Source: Escherichia phage JEP7. Taken from it: a stretch of 52,936 nt of DNA. Shown here one piece after another: positions 44,600 to 50,308 of this stretch (its first letter is position 1; each line of letters begins with the position of its first letter). The DNA lies in the sequence record MT764207.1. One strand, given 5' to 3'. Below the pieces are notes generated by a model, which was not told the DNA's origin, did no database searches, and was given only the letters and a program-made list of their open reading frames with translations. The position numbers and the translations under genes were made by a program.

Positions 44600-44860
44600 A
44601 TGAGCTCCTTATAAAAGATTAAGGGGGTAAAAAAGGGGGATACAAGTACCGGATAAAGGGGGTATATATTTATTTATTATTATTATTATTATTATATATT
44701 ATTAATTATATTAGAAGTAATAAAAACAGCTACTTAGAGGCGTCTATATGTATGATCCGGTTTATCTCTTTATTAATATCAGAACCGGATGAAAAAAATT
44801 TACGCCGGCGAAAAAAATAAAAAAGCCGGATTGATAAATAAATCTGTAGACGTTTACACT
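44600..44860. repeat. AT-rich iteron/microsatellite region (candidate replication origin or regulatory hub)
   Basis: three AAGGGGG(T/A)A copies (44622, 44634, 44656); (TTA)7 microsatellite about 44676-44697; repeated CCGGAT/ATCCGG/GCCGGC motifs each followed by A-runs. Confidence 0.4.
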
Positions 44861-44882
44861 GTAAAAAAGATGTGCTACAATA
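44854..44882 (+). promoter_or_regulatory. sigma70-like promoter (TTTACA-N17-TACAAT)
   Basis: upstream of gene starting 44936. Confidence 0.45.
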
Positions 44883-44935
44883 TTTATCAATGTTGCTGAT
44901 TACCAAAACTTTGAATTGTATACGAGGCTGAATAA

Positions 44936-45367
44936 ATGGTTAATATAAGACAGAAAGGACAGAACTTTGAGCGTAAAATGGCTAAGAAGTTTAATAGCTC
45001 GTTCGGATTAACTGTTGAGCGCAATCTTCAACAGTCTATTAATGGCGGGGATGACTTGCTGGGTGTGCCGTTTTTCAGTGTTGAACTGAAGAAGCACAAT
45101 ACCAAGTCTATCGGAACATGGTGGAGACAGTGTGCGGCATCGGCAAAGGCTCAGAACAAGATGCCGGTACTGATATACGAACTACCAAGAAAACAGCCTA
45201 CCGTGGTGATGAATAAGGCTGATGTGATTGACTGTTTTCCAAGTGGCACGACTTTTAACGAGGCATCGAACCGCCTCTTTGTGGGTCTAGTAGAATTAAC
45301 ATGGGAACAATTTTGCCGGGTCTACAACTATTACGTTGCGCCCGGCACTCAATATCACGTCAATTAA
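44936..45367 (+). CDS. putative PD-(D/E)XK-type nuclease (Holliday-junction-resolvase-like)
   Basis: 143 aa; motif GGDDLLGVPFFSVELKKH consistent with D...ExK nuclease core; weak call. Confidence 0.3.
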   Translation: MVNIRQKGQNFERKMAKKFNSSFGLTVERNLQQSINGGDDLLGVPFFSVELKKHNTKSIGTWWRQCAASAKAQNKMPVLIYELPRKQPTVVMNKADVIDCFPSGTTFNEASNRLFVGLVELTWEQFCRVYNYYVAPGTQYHVN

Positions 45368-45549
45368 TCTTGTTTCAGCTCGTCACAAATGACACGCTGA
45401 TTTTTGGCAGGGATAATACCAAGATTCAGTAAGGTGTATGGACTATCGGCGGCACATTGTTCAACGGTAGTCCATTCAGTTTTGGATTCAACAATTTTGT
45501 AACTACAATCATGAGTAGCCACACATGTTGCCAGGATTAAGCCAATCAC
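45364..45549 (-). CDS. hypothetical small protein
   Basis: 61 aa, GTG start; hydrophobic N-terminus with LATC lipobox-like motif but no charged n-region. Confidence 0.25.
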   Translation of the reverse strand: MIGLILATCVATHDCSYKIVESKTEWTTVEQCAADSPYTLLNLGIIPAKNQRVICDELKQD

Positions 45550-45725
45550 AAGTAATCGCCTTCAACCAGGAACTCAAACAGTTGGTTGTAAACGTTGCAA
45601 CCTTTAGCGAAAGAGCTTTCAGCAGGTTTACCATCGCGGACGATCATCATATACTCACCGCCATGAATATCAACCCAATATTGCATGCCACCTTTGACCG
45701 TGTTACGTTGTAAGAATTTAAACAT
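45546..45725 (-). CDS. hypothetical small protein (not in ORF track)
   Basis: 59 codons; ATG overlaps upstream stop (TAATG); AAGGAG RBS; translation MFKFLQRNTVKGGMQYWVDIHGGEYMMIVRDGKPAESSFAKGCNVYNQLFEFLVEGDYL. Confidence 0.35.
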   Translation of the reverse strand: MFKFLQRNTVKGGMQYWVDIHGGEYMMIVRDGKPAESSFAKGCNVYNQLFEFLVEGDYL

Positions 45726-45970
45726 TATTTGCTCCTTATTCCAAGTTTATTCAATAACCAAATTGTCATGTCAACCCAGGTTAACGGTACAGTTTTCGGG
45801 GGTTGATAATTCCAGCAGCTTGCAGTTCTTTGTATTTCTGCTTGGCGCCGCTCCGCTTCGCGTAATACCGCATCGTCAGAAGTGCCGGCAGAAAAAAGAT
45901 CGGTAACACCAGATAAATCGCGTTGATTAACACGTCGAGCAATGTCATATAAATCATCCTTAGAAAACAT
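45725..45970 (-). CDS. hypothetical protein
   Basis: 81 aa; start overlaps the 3' end of the 41-codon ORF upstream. Confidence 0.3.
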   Translation of the reverse strand: MFSKDDLYDIARRVNQRDLSGVTDLFSAGTSDDAVLREAERRQAEIQRTASCWNYQPPKTVPLTWVDMTIWLLNKLGIRSK

Positions 45971-46085
45971 AAGCCAATACCATAAGAATTATCAGAAAGA
46001 TCCCAACCAGCTTCCTCATAGCCCGACCTTCAGCATATGCAGGATTCACAACAGAATACTCAACAACATGTTTACATCGGACCAT
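45960..46085 (-). CDS. hypothetical small membrane peptide (not in ORF track)
   Basis: 41 codons; GGAGG RBS 4 nt before ATG; C-terminal hydrophobic helix KLVGIFLIILMVLAYVF. Confidence 0.3.
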   Translation of the reverse strand: MVRCKHVVEYSVVNPAYAEGRAMRKLVGIFLIILMVLAYVF

Positions 46086-46197
46086 AAGGCCTCCACTTGT
46101 GGGTTAATTCAAGCATGAGGACTTTCATCAAATCCTCAGGATTGAATTAATTACCAGCTTTTAATCAAGCCCTGTCAGCGCCAGGACTTGACTAATA

Positions 46198-46398
46198 TCA
46201 CTCTATCATTACCTGAACTACTATTATACACTCTTTATTGAAGCGAGTAAACACTTTTCCACCATTAGTGCGTTTAGCCCCAGATTTTAGAGCTGACTGG
46301 CACCAGATATGCCACTCCTCAACTGTCAAGAATTTTTGCTCAGCTTTGGGTGGCAATCCATGGGCAAGGTCTACCGTCGTAAATTTGACTAGTGGCAT
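46198..46398 (-). CDS. hypothetical protein
   Basis: 66 aa from ATG 46398 (track ORF starts at a GTG at 46401). Confidence 0.3.
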   Translation of the reverse strand: MPLVKFTTVDLAHGLPPKAEQKFLTVEEWHIWCQSALKSGAKRTNGGKVFTRFNKECIIVVQVMIE

Positions 46399-46787
46399 CA
46401 CTTGACCTCAAACTTTGACTCGTCGTATTCCGGATCAGTCACGTCCCGGGTCGCACAATTTTTGATTGCTTCCCAGTAGCGTTGGGCATCATCACCATCG
46501 ACGTAAACCGTCCAGTGGCCATAACCACCTTCAAATCTGTCCCAGGCTTGTTCCCAGACTTTGCCATCTTCCAGCTTGTACCAAGTTGGACGACTGTCAA
46601 ACTCACGAATTGGATGGTACCCCATCAAGGGATTCATCAGGTCGATAATGTCTTCCCGACTAATCTCCTGGTTCTCCCACAACACCGTCATGAATTGCTC
46701 AAACTTGAAGGCGTTTGGCAGAACTTTGAGTACTTTACCGTCACAATATACGGTATAGGTGCCATCTTCGCATTTTGCACTGTACAT
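46398..46787 (-). CDS. hypothetical protein
   Basis: 129 aa from ATG 46787 with AGGAGAG RBS; preceded by conserved leader and dyad. Confidence 0.35.
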   Translation of the reverse strand: MYSAKCEDGTYTVYCDGKVLKVLPNAFKFEQFMTVLWENQEISREDIIDLMNPLMGYHPIREFDSRPTWYKLEDGKVWEQAWDRFEGGYGHWTVYVDGDDAQRYWEAIKNCATRDVTDPEYDESKFEVK

Positions 46788-46855
46788 GTTTCTCTCTCCT
46801 ATTGATATAATTTCAATCATGAACTATCACAACTTTGGATAGTTCATTGTTGAAA

Positions 46856-47029
46856 CTATACTAACTTTGTTGCGATCTGAATTGTCAGCCGGAAATCTTC
46901 CATCAAGTTATCAAACTCTTTGGAACCACCAACAGCATCAGATATTTGATCTTTCACAATTTGGGCATTTGATTCCAGTAATTCAATCAGGTGCGCCAAT
47001 TCGTCTTCAGTCAATTTCAAATCTTTCAT
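46856..47029 (-). CDS. small acidic helical protein, paralog family member A
   Basis: 57 aa from ATG 47029; N-terminus MKDLKLTEDELAHLIELLE similar to the products of 47289-47447 and 48144-48317. Confidence 0.35.
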   Translation of the reverse strand: MKDLKLTEDELAHLIELLESNAQIVKDQISDAVGGSKEFDNLMEDFRLTIQIATKLV

Positions 47030-47283
47030 AATGCATCCACCCAAGCCATAACTTTTGCCAGTCTTACAACGTCTTCATGGTCCCGCTCGCCATCAGAAAA
47101 TTCGCTGGCGATGATATCCATAATTGACGCCAGATTCATGTTGATGATGTAGGCGTGTTGGCGCACTTCATCAATTCCTGAATCTATCACCAGTTCCGCA
47201 AATTCTTGTGAACCTTCATCCCATTCAGCCCAATACTGCTCAGCATAAAAGTCCAGTTCTTTTTTCATCTCAATATCAGTCAT
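47026..47283 (-). CDS. highly acidic small protein
   Basis: 85 aa, many D/E and aromatic residues; AGGAG RBS. Confidence 0.35.
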   Translation of the reverse strand: MTDIEMKKELDFYAEQYWAEWDEGSQEFAELVIDSGIDEVRQHAYIINMNLASIMDIIASEFSDGERDHEDVVRLAKVMAWVDAL

Positions 47284-47288
47284 TTTGA

Positions 47289-47447
47289 TTACTCCTCAGA
47301 ACCTGAAAATTTGTCATCAATGGACTCAACAATATAATCAAGAGTTGAAGTGTGAGAACTATCAGAAAAAGTGCCCATCTTCTCCAGCTCAATCATCATA
47401 TCCCGTAAAGCCATTGCCTGGTCTTTGGTCAGTTTAATTTTAAGCAT
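47289..47447 (-). CDS. small acidic helical protein, paralog family member B
   Basis: 52 aa from ATG 47447 with CAGGAGAG RBS; MLKIKLTKDQAMALRDMMIELE. Confidence 0.35.
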   Translation of the reverse strand: MLKIKLTKDQAMALRDMMIELEKMGTFSDSSHTSTLDYIVESIDDKFSGSEE

Positions 47448-47511
47448 GTTTCTCTCCTGTTGATTGTGAATAATTTCAATTGATGGCACTACTTGAGTGC
47501 CATCTCAAAAA

Positions 47512-48048
47512 TTACTCTTCAGTTTCTTGGGTTTCAGGTTTTTGACCAGTTACTGACTTGCCATCAGTCACTTTACCAGATTTTACATCATTCCGGTAGT
47601 ATGACATATATGACTGGATAACTCTTTTGGCTTTGATGTCATCCGCCTCCATCCCACAGGCTTTCATGGCATCAACTAGGGCCAGTTTGGAATCTTCCTT
47701 ATCCATCAGGTTATAATCCTTAAACACCAGATAACAAGTGTCCTTGGTTGATGGACCAGATGACTTCCGGGTCCCGCCATTGGAAGATCTTGATGCCACA
47801 ACTTTGACCTCTTCAACTTCCAGTTGGTTCAGTTCATCAAACAATGCCTTGACCAACACTTCTTTGGAGTCCTTGACAGTTGCAGAACTTTCATCATTAA
47901 GGGACTTAATCATCTTAATGATCTGGTTATTGGCAAAGTACTGAAGACTATCCATCTGCACTACAATAGTCCCAAGACTTTCAGTAGTCAGACCAGATTT
48001 TACAGACTCAACAGAAAAGGCGGAAGTCAGGTAAACATAGTTAGTCAT
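47512..48048 (-). CDS. hypothetical protein
   Basis: 178 aa from ATG 48048 with GAGGA RBS; Ser/Lys/Glu-rich. Confidence 0.35.
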   Translation of the reverse strand: MTNYVYLTSAFSVESVKSGLTTESLGTIVVQMDSLQYFANNQIIKMIKSLNDESSATVKDSKEVLVKALFDELNQLEVEEVKVVASRSSNGGTRKSSGPSTKDTCYLVFKDYNLMDKEDSKLALVDAMKACGMEADDIKAKRVIQSYMSYYRNDVKSGKVTDGKSVTGQKPETQETEE

Positions 48049-48143
48049 TGATGTATCCTCATTGATAGAATTTTTGATAAGTGTCAATCCTTGACAAGTA
48101 AGTCCAATCATGAGGACTTTTACCAAGTCCCCATTGTTGGAAA

Positions 48144-48317
48144 TTACTTCAACTTATCCAGAATTGATTGGAGTAACTTGACCCTCACTTCCTGGTCTTT
48201 GACATCCCTTCCACTCTCCCTGTCATATTCCAACAGGTCACTTTCCATAAATAAAGTAGTGTCCAATTGGTCAACCAATAATTCCAGTTCTTCTTGGGAC
48301 AATTCTAAAACTTTCAT
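48144..48317 (-). CDS. small acidic helical protein, paralog family member C
   Basis: 57 aa from ATG 48317 with AGGAGT RBS; MKVLELSQEELELLVDQLD. Confidence 0.35.
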   Translation of the reverse strand: MKVLELSQEELELLVDQLDTTLFMESDLLEYDRESGRDVKDQEVRVKLLQSILDKLK

Positions 48318-48321
48318 CTTA

Positions 48322-48468
48322 TTACTCCTGATATTTAATAACTTGGGATTGGATAAAGTCAACACAATCTTCCACATCCATTGACTCAAAGTCTGGAACT
48401 GGACCATTGTTTATATTGACACACCAAAGCCCTTCATTGGTATCATACCAAAGTGTGTAGTTGTCCAT
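48322..48468 (-). CDS. hypothetical small protein
   Basis: 48 aa from ATG 48468 with GAGGTGA RBS; first gene of leftward early block. Confidence 0.3.
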   Translation of the reverse strand: MDNYTLWYDTNEGLWCVNINNGPVPDFESMDVEDCVDFIQSQVIKYQE

Positions 48469-48834
48469 CTTAATAGTCACCTCTTGTACTAGTTTCCAGT
48501 TGTGACTACTGTTACCAATAGTCACTGGTTGAAACTATTACTAGTGTTACTATCAACAAGAAACATGTTACCAGATTGTTAAAGAGCAAAAGGTACCATT
48601 GACATCTACCAGATGTACCTGTTGACTGGTTAAGTACTACCTACCCAAATTAAACCATACTAATACCCTCCAGACCAGTTGACTGGTCACTTGGTCATCA
48701 CATTCAATAAATATATAATAGTCCAATCCCTCTTGATTGTACACCTTATATTTGTAAGTTTATGCAAGTTTTTAGAAATGATAATCACTTGCGATTGAGA
48801 GTGGTTCTCATATGCAATTGATATAGTTTCACAT

Positions 48835-48914
48835 GTAATTACTCACTTCAAAATGGTCGGCGGGGGTTATAGTAACGTAGGGGTGCCACTTAAAGGAGCC
48901 GGCGAAATTATTTC
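48835..48914. repeat. GC-rich direct repeat, copy 1
   Basis: TAATTACTCACTTCAAAATGG-TCGGCGGGGGT...GGGTGCCAC...AGGAGCCGGCGAAATT; imperfect copy of 49010-49090. Confidence 0.5.
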
Positions 48915-49009
48915 TAAAAATATAATTTCAATCTGAATTATAGACGCTTTGTACTATAACGGCCGAAGTAGTTCACCCGGTAATTGTACCAATCATAATA
49001 GTTACCAGA

Positions 49010-49090
49010 GTAATCATTTCAATCGAAATAGGTGCGGCGGGGGTAATTTCGCAAGGGTGCTACCCGCCAGGAGCCAGCGGAATTTTTTTA
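49010..49090. repeat. GC-rich direct repeat, copy 2
   Basis: TAATCATTTCAATCGAAATAGG-TGCGGCGGGGGT...GGGTGCTAC...AGGAGCCAGCGGAATT followed by a T-run. Confidence 0.5.
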
Positions 49091-49319
49091 TTTTTTGGTA
49101 TTTTTGCCTTATCAGGACCAATCATCATCAGATTGATACAATAGGAGCTAACCTTTTGCCTAACACAATAATAAGTGAAGCCCCTCTAAAATTTTTTTTT
49201 ATATTTTTCGGAAATTGTGTAGACACTCACTAAAAAGTGGTGTACTTTCTCTCCTCCACGCGCTATCATTAATGTGAATCATCAAACGGCCTCACGGTCT
49301 CCTACTTGTGGGTAACATT

Positions 49320-49805
49320 ATGAAAATTGTTCAATTAGAGCCATATCCGCCTCAATTGGCTATCGTTTGCAGCGAAAAAGAGCACGAAGAGCTCCAAAAA
49401 CTGATGGATTTGCCTGATTTTGGCAACTGGAATGACCGAGAAACGCGTACTGCATCTACCTTTACGTTCTCTCGCGTTAACTATCCGTACCTGTTAATCG
49501 TCGTCGAGCTGTACCACCCGGACGACCTGAAGTACAACACCATTTCCCACGAAGGCATTCACGTAATGTCGTCGCTGATGAACTATGTCGGCCTTAAATA
49601 CGACCCAGAAAACGATGAATGGTACGCATATCAGCATGATTTCATCGTAAATGCCATTTGTAAGGCCCATGACGAGTACATTGAGCGCCAAAAAACGCCA
49701 AAAACTAAGCCAAAAATCGAAACAGGCAACCATCCTGTGATACTGCCACAAGACGTTATGAACTCGCTTTTGACTGACACTACTGGGGACTTTTTAGGTG
49801 ATTGA
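49320..49805 (+). CDS. HExxH-motif protein (putative zinc metallopeptidase-like)
   Basis: about 161 aa from ATG 49320 (track starts at a GTG at 49308); HEGIH motif (NTISHEGIHVMSSLM). Confidence 0.3.
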   Translation: MKIVQLEPYPPQLAIVCSEKEHEELQKLMDLPDFGNWNDRETRTASTFTFSRVNYPYLLIVVELYHPDDLKYNTISHEGIHVMSSLMNYVGLKYDPENDEWYAYQHDFIVNAICKAHDEYIERQKTPKTKPKIETGNHPVILPQDVMNSLLTDTTGDFLGD

Positions 49806-50307
49806 AATACTCCGTAAGTATTTTCGCTATGAGCCAGACACAGGCTTATTGTACAGAATACGACAGGCTAAAACAGGTAAACGAGTCGATTTGAGCCAGC
49901 CTGTAGGCACGGAACATAGCGGTTATCTGTTTTGCAGTGTACCAGAAGGCATTCGTACAAAGCCTGTGCACGTAATCTGCTATGCTTTACAAACTGGCGA
50001 ACTACCTGAAGTAGTTGACCATAAAGATGGTAACGGGCTTAACAACAAATGGTACAACCTTCGTAACGGTACTCAAACGCAGAACCGGTATAACTCAAAA
50101 GTCAAATCAAGTAACACAACAGGCGTAAAAGGCTTGTTTGAGTACGCACCAAAAGGTCGTAAACCTCTTTGGAAAGCCAGCATTAAAGTAGATGGAGTCA
50201 ATCATCAGAAGTATTTCCCTTATACTGATAACGGTAGGCTGGAAGCTATTGAGTGGCTTGACGAACAAAGACATCAACATGGCGAATTCGCCAACAAAGG
50301 AAATTAA
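49798..50307 (+). CDS. HNH homing endonuclease with AP2-like DNA-binding domain
   Basis: 169 aa; HNH core VVDHKDGNGLNNKWYNLRNGTQTQN; C-terminal GVKGLFEYAPKGRKPLWKASIKVDGVNHQKYFPYTDNGRLEAIEW resembles AP2 domain. Confidence 0.75.
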   Translation: MIEILRKYFRYEPDTGLLYRIRQAKTGKRVDLSQPVGTEHSGYLFCSVPEGIRTKPVHVICYALQTGELPEVVDHKDGNGLNNKWYNLRNGTQTQNRYNSKVKSSNTTGVKGLFEYAPKGRKPLWKASIKVDGVNHQKYFPYTDNGRLEAIEWLDEQRHQHGEFANKGN

Positions 50308-50308
50308 T

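What the first reader, a model, noticed from the sequence alone, without database searches (positions are those of the whole stretch)
47026..47283. Highly acidic 85-aa early protein: candidate DNA-mimic or anti-defence factor
The product (MTDIEMKKELDFYAEQYWAEWDEGSQEFAELVIDSGIDEVRQHAYIINMNLASIMDIIASEFSDGERDHEDVVRLAKVMAWVDAL) has a high density of Asp/Glu with interspersed aromatics, a composition shared with known DNA-mimic inhibitors of restriction and other DNA-binding defence proteins. This is a compositional argument only.
Basis: inference. Interest (0 to 1): 0.4.

Follow-up and report, generated by a model that had tools for sequence, protein, structure and literature searches.

The report
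Acidic early phage protein, function untested
This is a real 85-residue, very acidic phage gene on a small gain-or-loss cassette in the phage's terminal repeat; it is a reasonable but unproven candidate for blocking a host DNA-binding protein, and it resembles no known DNA mimic or anti-defence protein.

Summary
The ORF is real. It lies at 47026..47283 on the MINUS strand and encodes 85 aa (pI 4.06, 21 Asp/Glu, net charge -15). It has a GAGGAG ribosome-binding site and an ATGA overlap with the next gene, and it is under purifying selection (dN/dS 0.03-0.18).

The window is a Rosemountvirus (BP63-like myovirus). The gene sits inside the roughly 4.27-kb direct terminal repeat (window 44807..49075), in a leftward block of small, mostly acidic genes of unknown function.

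It belongs to phrog_35114, a very small family of about 12 clusters. Every member is acidic (net -8 to -17), and the conserved acidic positions are E20, D22, E23, E27, E30 and E39.

AlphaFold gives a confident five-helix bundle (pLDDT 95). A linker-tethered tandem copy also scores well (pTM 0.83), which suggests a homodimer. No sequence, profile or fold search matched Ocr, ArdA, Gam, gp5.9, Arn, SPO1 Gp46 or any other solved structure.

The gene is accessory. SPLA11 and AV127 lack a 627-bp three-gene cassette that contains it, fHy-Eco03 lacks it, and SPHG1 has deleted most of it. It diverges faster than its neighbours (41% versus 70-94% identity).

Verdict: a plausible early inhibitor aimed at the host. 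DNA mimicry remains an untested inference, and acidity is common among its neighbours. Interest is modest.

The parts
47026..47283 (-). 85-aa acidic ORF (phrog_35114): predicted five-helix bundle, probably a homodimer
47167..47226 (-). Codons for residues 20-39. This is the conserved acidic segment (E20, W21, D22, E23, E27, E30, D34, E39) covering the H1-H2 loop, helix 2 and helix 3. Residues 23/27/30/34 fall on one helical face.
   Evidence: Conservation counts, alignment, helix limits. The helical-face argument is inference.
47292..47297 (-). Shine-Dalgarno GAGGAG, 8 nt upstream of the ATG. It lies within the last codons of the upstream 52-aa gene.
   Evidence: read from the sequence
47026..47029 (-). 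ATGA stop/start overlap with the downstream 57-aa gene, implying translational coupling. The same 4-nt overlap occurs in Loughboroughviruses.
46818..47444 (-). Three-gene indel cassette (52-aa gene 47289..47447, the 85-aa gene, 57-aa gene 46856..47029). It is absent from Rosemountviruses SPLA11 and AV127.
47448..47511 (-). Upstream cassette junction: a stable hairpin plus ATTGAAATTAT...AGGAGAGAAAC-ATG module
   Evidence: hairpin -17.6 kcal/mol, z = -3.8
46788..46860 (-). Downstream cassette junction: a second copy of the hairpin plus ATTGAAATTAT...AGGAGAGAGAAAC-ATG module
   Evidence: I3; hairpin -23.6 kcal/mol, z = -6.1
44807..49075 (.). Region equivalent to the direct terminal repeat. It is collapsed to one copy in this assembly and contains the whole leftward small-gene block.
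   Evidence: vB_SalM_Sz carries an exact 4,263-bp repeat at both ends, mapping to these window coordinates; fHy-Eco03 has an annotated 3,699-bp terminal repeat.
48715..48743 (-). Sigma-70-like promoter (TGTACA, 17 nt spacer, TATTAT) pointing into the block. It is conserved in Rosemount- and Loughborough-type phages.
   Evidence: It is a consensus match plus conservation; no transcript data exist.

Best explanation
The ORF encodes a genuine, accessory protein that is probably expressed early by a Rosemountvirus.

Proposed sequence of events: the gene lies in the terminal repeat. Host RNA polymerase would transcribe it leftward from a conserved sigma-70-type promoter. It would be translated from a strong Shine-Dalgarno site, coupled to the next small gene.

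The product is a compact, all-helical protein of 85 residues, probably a homodimer, with net charge -15 per chain. The most likely mechanism is stoichiometric inhibition of a host protein that binds nucleic acid. The protein would occupy the target's basic DNA/RNA-binding surface with its conserved acidic ridge (E20, D22, E23, E27, E30, E39) and the adjacent invariant-like aromatic W21. This is loose DNA mimicry of the kind shown for SPO1 Gp46. The target could be a housekeeping protein (nucleoid protein, RNA polymerase, RecBCD) or a DNA-targeting defence enzyme. The sequence cannot say which.

Shown: the gene is real; its location in the terminal repeat; its cassette presence/absence; family-wide acidity; a confident helical fold.

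Inferred: early timing, dimer state, binding through the acidic ridge, and the identity or class of the target.
For: - Real gene under purifying selection.
- Inside the direct terminal repeat.
- A conserved sigma-70-like promoter lies upstream.
- It sits in a block of small unknown genes. The fHy-Eco03 homologue (Gp05) of one of them, the 81-aa protein, is experimentally toxic to E. coli.
- All 13 aligned family members are acidic, net -8 to -17.
- Eight acidic positions are at least 70% conserved, and six of them lie in residues 20-39.
- AF2 monomer pLDDT 95.4. The tandem-linked copy gives pTM 0.83 with both domains above pLDDT 93.
- Accessory and mobile: the cassette is missing in SPLA11 and AV127, the gene is absent in fHy-Eco03, and it is truncated or fused in SPHG1.
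- 41% identity to the ZCSE2 orthologue, against 70-94% for neighbouring genes.
- Homologues also sit in the early-type small-gene arrays of unrelated KF-1-like podophages.
- Precedent: SPO1 Gp46 is small, pI 4.3, encoded in the host-takeover module of a terminal redundancy, and occludes the DNA-binding site of HU (PMC8892312).
Against: - Acidity is shared by most small proteins of the block, so it does not discriminate.
- The charge geometry could not be compared with DNA.
- The dimer prediction used a tether, with no control and no PAE.
- There are no transcript data for timing.
- SPLA11, which lacks the cassette, is among the broadest-host-range phages of its collection, so the cassette is not needed on many Salmonella strains.
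- DNA of the related phage S144 resists most restriction enzymes, suggesting base modification, which lessens the need for an anti-restriction mimic.
Confidence: 0.35

Rival explanations
1. A dedicated anti-defence DNA mimic. The acidic dimer would imitate duplex DNA and block a DNA-targeting immune enzyme (type I R-M, BREX methyltransferase, a RecBCD-type nuclease or similar), as Ocr, ArdA or gp5.9 do.
For: - Composition and conserved acidity.
- Predicted dimer.
- Position in the terminal repeat, likely early.
- Presence/absence polymorphism and faster divergence than neighbours, both typical of counter-defence genes.
Against: - No homology or fold match to Ocr, ArdA, Gam, gp5.9 or Arn.
- The cassette-less phage SPLA11 has a broad host range.
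- A related phage has restriction-resistant, probably modified, DNA.
- No family member has been tested.
- The prior from composition alone is low, because most neighbouring proteins are just as acidic.
Confidence: 0.15
2. A protein-protein modulator that is not a nucleic-acid mimic. Examples would be an adaptor, an inhibitor of a host enzyme or of transcription/translation machinery, or a partner or regulator of another phage early protein such as the translationally coupled 57-aa product. On this reading the acidity only serves solubility or general electrostatics.
For: - A compact helical bundle with many generic helical-bundle neighbours.
- Translational coupling to the 57-aa gene, conserved in two genera.
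- In KF-1-like phages the homologue is always followed by a phrog_10459 protein.
- Many small acidic early phage proteins have non-DNA-mimic roles (general knowledge).
Against: - The partners are not fixed. vB_SE1_KM has the homologue without the 57-aa gene, and fHy-Eco03 has the 57-aa gene without the homologue.
- The conserved polar residues are almost all acidic and clustered, which argues that charge itself is functional.
Confidence: 0.25
3. A dispensable ORFan with no specific function that survives by hitch-hiking in a hyperplastic region.
For: - Missing from several viable relatives.
- Tiny family.
- No annotation anywhere.
Against: - dN/dS well below 1.
- Conserved core and acidic positions across 30-50% identity and across two unrelated phage lineages.
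- Very confident fold.
- Strong RBS.
Confidence: 0.05

Closest known systems
[quoted passage not shown] Gp46 is a loose DNA mimic that inhibits HU (PMC8892312; PMC8208478).
   Same: Small, acidic (Gp46 pI 4.3 versus 4.06 here), encoded among small early genes inside a terminal repeat, with acidic residues concentrated on one part of the protein.
T7 Ocr (gp0.3), Pfam PF08684: a dimeric DNA mimic that blocks type I R-M and BREX
   Same: Acidic, all-helical, probably dimeric, and located near a genome end where early genes lie.
   Different: No Pfam hit, no PDB profile hit and no structural hit. It is 85 aa against about 116 aa for Ocr (from memory). It is a compact five-helix bundle; Ocr, as I recall it, is elongated and DNA-shaped.
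T7 gp5.9, lambda Gam and P22 Abc2: RecBCD inhibitors (PMC9836394)
   Same: Small acidic early proteins of phages with linear DNA ends. gp5.9 is a helical dimer that mimics DNA.
   Different: No similarity in any search. The related phage S144 is reported to carry a separate Ku/Mu-Gam-like end-protection protein.
PeSL-flanked ORFan cassettes in the hyperplastic regions of T4-type phages (PMC2839356, PMC4122927)
   Same: The gene sits on a cassette bounded by repeated intergenic stem-loop modules. Close relatives differ by precise gain or loss of the cassette at those modules.
   Different: Different phage group. The repeated module here (hairpin plus ATTGAAATTAT...AGGAGAGAAAC) has not been shown to contain a promoter.

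Membership tests
phrog_35114 (PHROG family of unknown function) | Full-length match to the family profile | tested here: met
   E = 1.7e-58 over residues 1-85 of 85. Distant homologues also hit it.
Ocr (PF08684) and ArdA (PF07275) anti-restriction DNA mimics | Sequence match to the Pfam family | tested here: not met
   no such hit for the query or any of the 13 family members, even at E up to 1-10.
Ocr and ArdA anti-restriction DNA mimics | Fold similar to the solved structures | tested here: not met
DNA-mimic proteins (a functional class, not a homology family) | High Asp/Glu content and low pI | tested here: met
   24.7% D+E, pI 4.06, net -15. Conserved across the family. Low specificity, because 7 of 11 neighbouring proteins are similar.
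DNA-mimic proteins (a functional class) | Surface carboxylates arranged like the phosphate backbone of duplex DNA | tested here: inconclusive
The only indications are indirect: conserved E23/E27/E30/D34 share one face of helix 2, next to E20/D22 and E39. APBS and superposition on B-DNA are needed.
DNA-mimic proteins (a functional class) | Binds the DNA-binding site of a target protein and competes with DNA | not testable with these tools
   Needs pull-down, EMSA competition or a co-structure.
DNA-mimic proteins (a functional class) | Oligomeric (usually dimeric) state that extends the acidic surface | tested here: inconclusive
   the (GS)15-tethered tandem copy gives pTM 0.83. There is no control and no PAE, and the tether favours association.
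Terminal-repeat host-takeover or pre-early gene sets (SPO1 host-takeover module, T5 pre-early genes) | Encoded within the direct terminal repeat | tested here: met
   the exact 4,263-bp repeat of vB_SalM_Sz maps to window 44807..49075; the fHy-Eco03 repeat is annotated and described.
Terminal-repeat host-takeover or pre-early gene sets | Transcribed first after infection by host RNA polymerase | not testable with these tools
   Only a conserved sigma-70-like promoter match supports this. No transcriptome of a Rosemountvirus turned up in the literature searches made; those searches were not aimed specifically at transcriptomes.
Known anti-defence proteins with solved structures (Acr, Gad, Tad, Acb and others) | Sequence or fold similarity to any of them | tested here: not met
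   PDB profile searches; fold searches; BFVD: only its own BP63 orthologue.

The most novel reading that the evidence does not exclude
The protein founds a new fold family of dimeric DNA-mimic counter-defence proteins. On this reading it is carried on a stem-loop-bounded mobile cassette in the terminal repeat of Rosemount/Loughborough-type myoviruses, has been exchanged with KF-1-like podoviruses, and neutralises a DNA-targeting defence system of Enterobacterales through the conserved E20-E39 acidic ridge.
Probability: 0.15. Interest if true: 0.55.

Novelty: new member of a known kind. Interest (0 to 1): 0.3.

Why it matters
If the acidic ridge does block a host DNA-binding protein, this would add a structurally new family to the short list of phage DNA mimics. 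It would also give a handle on the uncharacterised terminal-repeat early block of Rosemountviruses, a genus widely used in Salmonella and E. coli biocontrol cocktails.

Natural phage pairs with and without the cassette already exist: SPLA11 and AV127 lack it, while SPLA12, SPLA9 and SPLA2 carry it. That makes the question cheap to test.

If the hypothesis fails, this remains one more hypothetical small acidic early protein, which is ordinary.

Tried and rejected
- Pfam on the query and on all 13 family members: only sub-threshold noise such as ATPgrasp_YheCD and Condensin2nSMC.
- PDB sequence-profile searches with two alignments: nothing below E = 0.2.
- Word-indexed and exhaustive homology searches: the family stays tiny and unnamed. 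Two of the 13 exhaustive hits (P0010, 1008 aa; P0013, a repetitive 259-aa protein) look spurious and were excluded.
- Neighbouring genes gave no functional theme. All are PHROG-unknown or have no hit, and Pfam and PDB gave nothing.
- Obligate pairing with the coupled 57-aa gene was considered and rejected. vB_SE1_KM has the homologue without that gene, and fHy-Eco03 has that gene without the homologue.
- An antitoxin role for the toxic 81-aa protein was considered and rejected. fHy-Eco03 keeps the toxic Gp05 without this gene.
- Rfam on the block: only a chance miRNA-like hit far below threshold.
- Literature searches on Rosemountvirus, BP63 and JEP7 found no functional study of this gene.

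Full report
**1. The observation**

The ORF exists exactly at 47026..47283, but on the minus strand. It starts with ATG, and its translation is identical to the sequence in the finding.

It has 85 residues: 10 Asp, 11 Glu, 3 Lys and 3 Arg. Net charge is -15, pI is 4.06, and there are 9 aromatic residues.

Among the 71 CDS positions taken from the near-identical record OM313461, it is the second most negatively charged per residue. The proteome medians are pI 5.41 and 13.5% acidic.

The acidity is real but not unique. Seven of the 11 annotated proteins of the same gene block have pI 4.6 or lower, so composition alone discriminates poorly.

**2. Is it a gene?**

Yes.

- GAGGAG lies 8 nt upstream of the ATG.
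- The TGA stop overlaps the ATG of the next gene as ATGA (read).
- The same ORF is annotated in about 50 related phages.
- It matches phrog_35114, a family of unknown function, end to end with E = 1.7e-58.
- Pairwise dN/dS among six genus members is 0.03-0.18. The exception is comparisons with phage birk (0.15-1.23, based on few substitutions), which has a few clustered N-terminal changes.
- The window carries a private G56D change.

**3. Where it sits**

The window is a Rosemountvirus (BP63-like myovirus). It has the same length as Escherichia phage PiR, with no indels but about 3% substitutions. It is probably phage JEP7, because a cluster member 'JEP7_61' comes from a 52,936-bp contig.

The ORF belongs to a leftward block of 11-12 small genes (45364..48468). 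The block lies between a PDDEXK/RusA-like nuclease gene and an 840-bp conserved intergenic region.

Two relatives were assembled with their physical ends, and both show that this block lies inside a direct terminal repeat:
- fHy-Eco03 has an annotated 3,699-bp repeat that encodes 11 genes.
- vB_SalM_Sz has an exact 4,263-bp repeat at both ends, which maps to window 44807..49075.

A sigma-70-like promoter (TGTACA, 17 nt spacer, TATTAT; 48743..48715, minus strand) points into the block. It is conserved in Rosemount- and Loughborough-type phages.

No transcriptome is available, so 'early' is an inference. It rests on this architecture and on the precedent of terminal-repeat early modules: the SPO1 host-takeover module (cited in PMC8892312) and the T5 pre-early genes (my own knowledge).

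The fHy-Eco03 homologue (Gp05) of one block member, the 81-aa protein at 45725..45970, was experimentally toxic to E. coli. This supports a host-directed role for the block as a whole.

**4. The family**

Word-indexed search found only near-identical copies. An exhaustive HMM search of 1.84 billion representatives found 13 hits, of which about 11 are credible. A second profile search added one more. Every name given by a source is 'hypothetical protein'.

Members are 73-94 aa and all are acidic: net -8 to -17, pI 4.05-4.45.

Conserved features:
- a hydrophobic core;
- W21 (12 of 13 sequences), invariant D22 and L51, and W81 and L85 (each at least 90% conserved);
- acidic positions 20, 22, 23, 27, 30, 39, 66 and 70 (at least 70% acidic).

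Six of those eight acidic positions fall in residues 20-39. Residues 23, 27, 30 and 34 follow an i, i+4, i+7, i+11 spacing, so they share one face of helix 2. That last point is inference.

Homologues occur in two settings:
- in Rosemount/Loughborough-type phages, always in the same early block;
- in three contigs of unrelated KF-1/Amaethon-like podophages, among the first small genes after a long intergenic gap. Each is followed by a phrog_10459 protein of unknown function.

**5. Structure**

AF2 with only seven sequences gives a very confident five-helix bundle: pLDDT 95.4, pTM 0.85, helices at 3-16, 23-34, 37-42, 44-63 and 69-84.

No significant structural neighbour was found:
- Foldseek against PDB: best E is 2.2.
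- BFVD: only its own BP63 orthologue.
- afdb50 was unavailable.

Profile searches of PDB sequences and Pfam also found nothing. The protein is therefore not a detectable relative of Ocr, ArdA, Gam, gp5.9, Arn, Ugi, SPO1 Gp46 or any solved anti-defence protein.

Two copies joined by a (GS)15 linker gave pTM 0.83, with both domains above pLDDT 93. That suggests a homodimer. However, the tether favours association, there was no control, and PAE is not reported, so I treat this as suggestive only.

**6. Accessory and mobile**

The early block is a set of shuffled cassettes, and gene order differs between phages.

- fHy-Eco03 lacks the gene. Its near-twin vB_SE1_KM carries a 53%-identical copy plus a 99-aa gene at the position of the fHy-Eco03 57-aa gene.
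- SPHG1 encodes a fusion of the first 20 residues to the body of the downstream 57-aa protein, which amounts to a deletion.
- SPLA11 and AV127 are more than 93% identical to the window in the adjacent 178-aa gene, yet both lack exactly the three-gene cassette (52 aa, 85 aa, 57 aa), window 46818..47444.

Both cassette junctions are copies of one intergenic module: a stable hairpin followed by ATTGAAATTAT...AGGAGAGAAAC-ATG. This recalls the PeSL-mediated modular shuffling of T4-type phages (PMC2839356, PMC4122927).

About 52 of roughly 60 clade genomes carry a full-length copy.

Between Rosemountvirus and Loughboroughvirus the protein is 41% identical, whereas its neighbours are 70-94% identical.

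**7. Interpretation**

Several features fit an early protein aimed at the host whose function depends on negative charge: location in the terminal repeat, cassette polymorphism, rapid divergence under purifying selection, and a conserved acidic ridge on a stable, probably dimeric, scaffold.

The closest working analogue is SPO1 Gp46. It has pI 4.3, lies in the host-takeover module of a terminal redundancy, and is a loose DNA mimic that occludes the DNA-binding site of HU.

Whether the target here is a defence enzyme or a housekeeping DNA-binding protein cannot be decided.

Evidence against the specific anti-restriction reading:
- The cassette-less phage SPLA11 is among the broadest-host-range phages of its collection.
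- DNA of the related phage S144 resists most restriction enzymes, so it is probably modified.
- S144 is reported to carry a separate Ku/Mu-Gam-like end-protection protein.

My estimates:
- about 0.35 for 'early inhibitor of a host nucleic-acid-binding protein acting through the acidic ridge';
- 0.15 for the narrower 'anti-defence DNA mimic';
- 0.25 for a non-mimic protein-protein role;
- 0.05 for no function.

**8. Novelty and score**

The gene is already catalogued as a hypothetical protein (phrog_35114). No function is known for any member.

It is best filed as a new, unrelated member of the known kind 'small acidic early phage proteins'. It would become a structurally new DNA-mimic family only if the hypothesis is confirmed.

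It is a reasonable and cheaply testable candidate, because natural phages with and without the cassette exist. The evidence for the proposed function remains circumstantial. Interest: 0.3.

Noticed in passing
window 44807..49075: This stretch corresponds to a direct terminal repeat of about 4.27 kb that is collapsed to one copy in this assembly. vB_SalM_Sz carries it as an exact 4,263-bp repeat at both ends, and fHy-Eco03 has an annotated 3,699-bp repeat. The physical genome ends therefore lie near 44807 and 49075, not at the window ends.
   Followed up: yes
window 46818..47444; junction modules 47448..47511 and 46788..46860: A three-gene cassette (52 aa, 85 aa, 57 aa) is precisely absent in Rosemountviruses SPLA11 and AV127. 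Both junctions are copies of a hairpin plus ATTGAAATTAT...AGGAGAGAAAC-ATG module. With up to one mismatch the motif occurs 6 times in the window against 1.3 expected; 4 of these (3 exact) are on the block's transcribed strand. This is a PeSL-like shuffling element outside the T4 group.
   Followed up: partly
window 45725..45970 (-): This 81-aa protein is 68% identical to fHy-Eco03 Gp05, the one protein found clearly toxic to E. coli in a published screen (PMC8145870). It has no PHROG, Pfam or PDB match.
   Followed up: partly
L008 (Salmonella phage SPHG1) 2995..3216: An annotated 73-aa ORF is a chimera. The first 20 residues come from the 85-aa protein and are joined to the body of the downstream 57-aa protein. 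A deletion between the similar 5' ends of the two genes would explain it.
   Followed up: partly
window 46856..47029, 48144..48317 and 47289..47447 (all -): Three small acidic proteins share an N-terminal 'K-L-x-L-T/S-x-D/E-E-L-x-x-L' start. The 57-aa proteins at 46856 and 48144 are linked by BLAST through their orthologues (E about 1e-4 to 1e-6), so the block contains a small paralogous family. Whether the 52-aa protein belongs is judged only by eye.
   Followed up: partly
window 46198..46398 (-): A 66-aa ORF (MPLVKFTTVDL...) is not annotated in the PiR record but is conserved and annotated in ZCSE2, fHy-Eco03, vB_SE1_KM and metagenomic relatives (37-76% identity). It is a likely missed gene.
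   Followed up: partly
window 48469..49307: This 840-bp intergenic region is about 76% identical across phages whose flanking small proteins are only 40-70% identical. It holds the terminal-repeat boundary, promoter-like sites in both directions, and a conserved leader of about 240 nt ahead of the first small gene. Its function is unknown; the packaging end, the origin or regulation are possibilities.
   Followed up: partly
window 47311..47338 (+): The best sigma-70 consensus match of the region (TTGTCA, 16 nt spacer, TATAAT; 11 of 12) lies antisense inside the 52-aa gene, just upstream of the 85-aa ORF's start. It may be chance or an antisense promoter. Conservation was not checked.
   Followed up: no
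window 47512..48048 (-): The 178-aa protein (phrog_9997) is virion-associated in fHy-Eco03 by mass spectrometry. It has homologues of about 31% identity in T4-like phages (VR7, SP18 and relatives), one of which is annotated as 'rho-N domain-containing'. Its position within the block differs between phages.
   Followed up: no
window 49806..50308: The HNH homing-endonuclease gene (49891..50307, Pfam HNH_3) is an insertion relative to vB_SalM_Sz, SPLA11 and AV127. Their alignments jump from about 49803-49812 to 50309.
   Followed up: partly
whole window versus OM313461.1: The window has exactly the length of phage PiR (52,936 bp) and aligns to it without indels, yet differs at about 1,550 positions (3%). 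A cluster member from a 52,936-bp contig is named JEP7_61, so the window is probably Escherichia phage JEP7.
   Followed up: partly
L013 986..1807; L016 6001..6810; L024 5001..5803: In KF-1/Amaethon-like podophage contigs, the distant homologue of the 85-aa protein is always immediately followed by a 154-160-aa phrog_10459 protein of unknown function. L013 carries a second phrog_10459 copy. They may form a functional pair.
   Followed up: partly
window 46398..46787 (-): The 129-aa protein is modular. fHy-Eco03 gp09 and the vB_SE1_KM 75-aa protein correspond only to its C-terminal half (residues 54-128).
   Followed up: no
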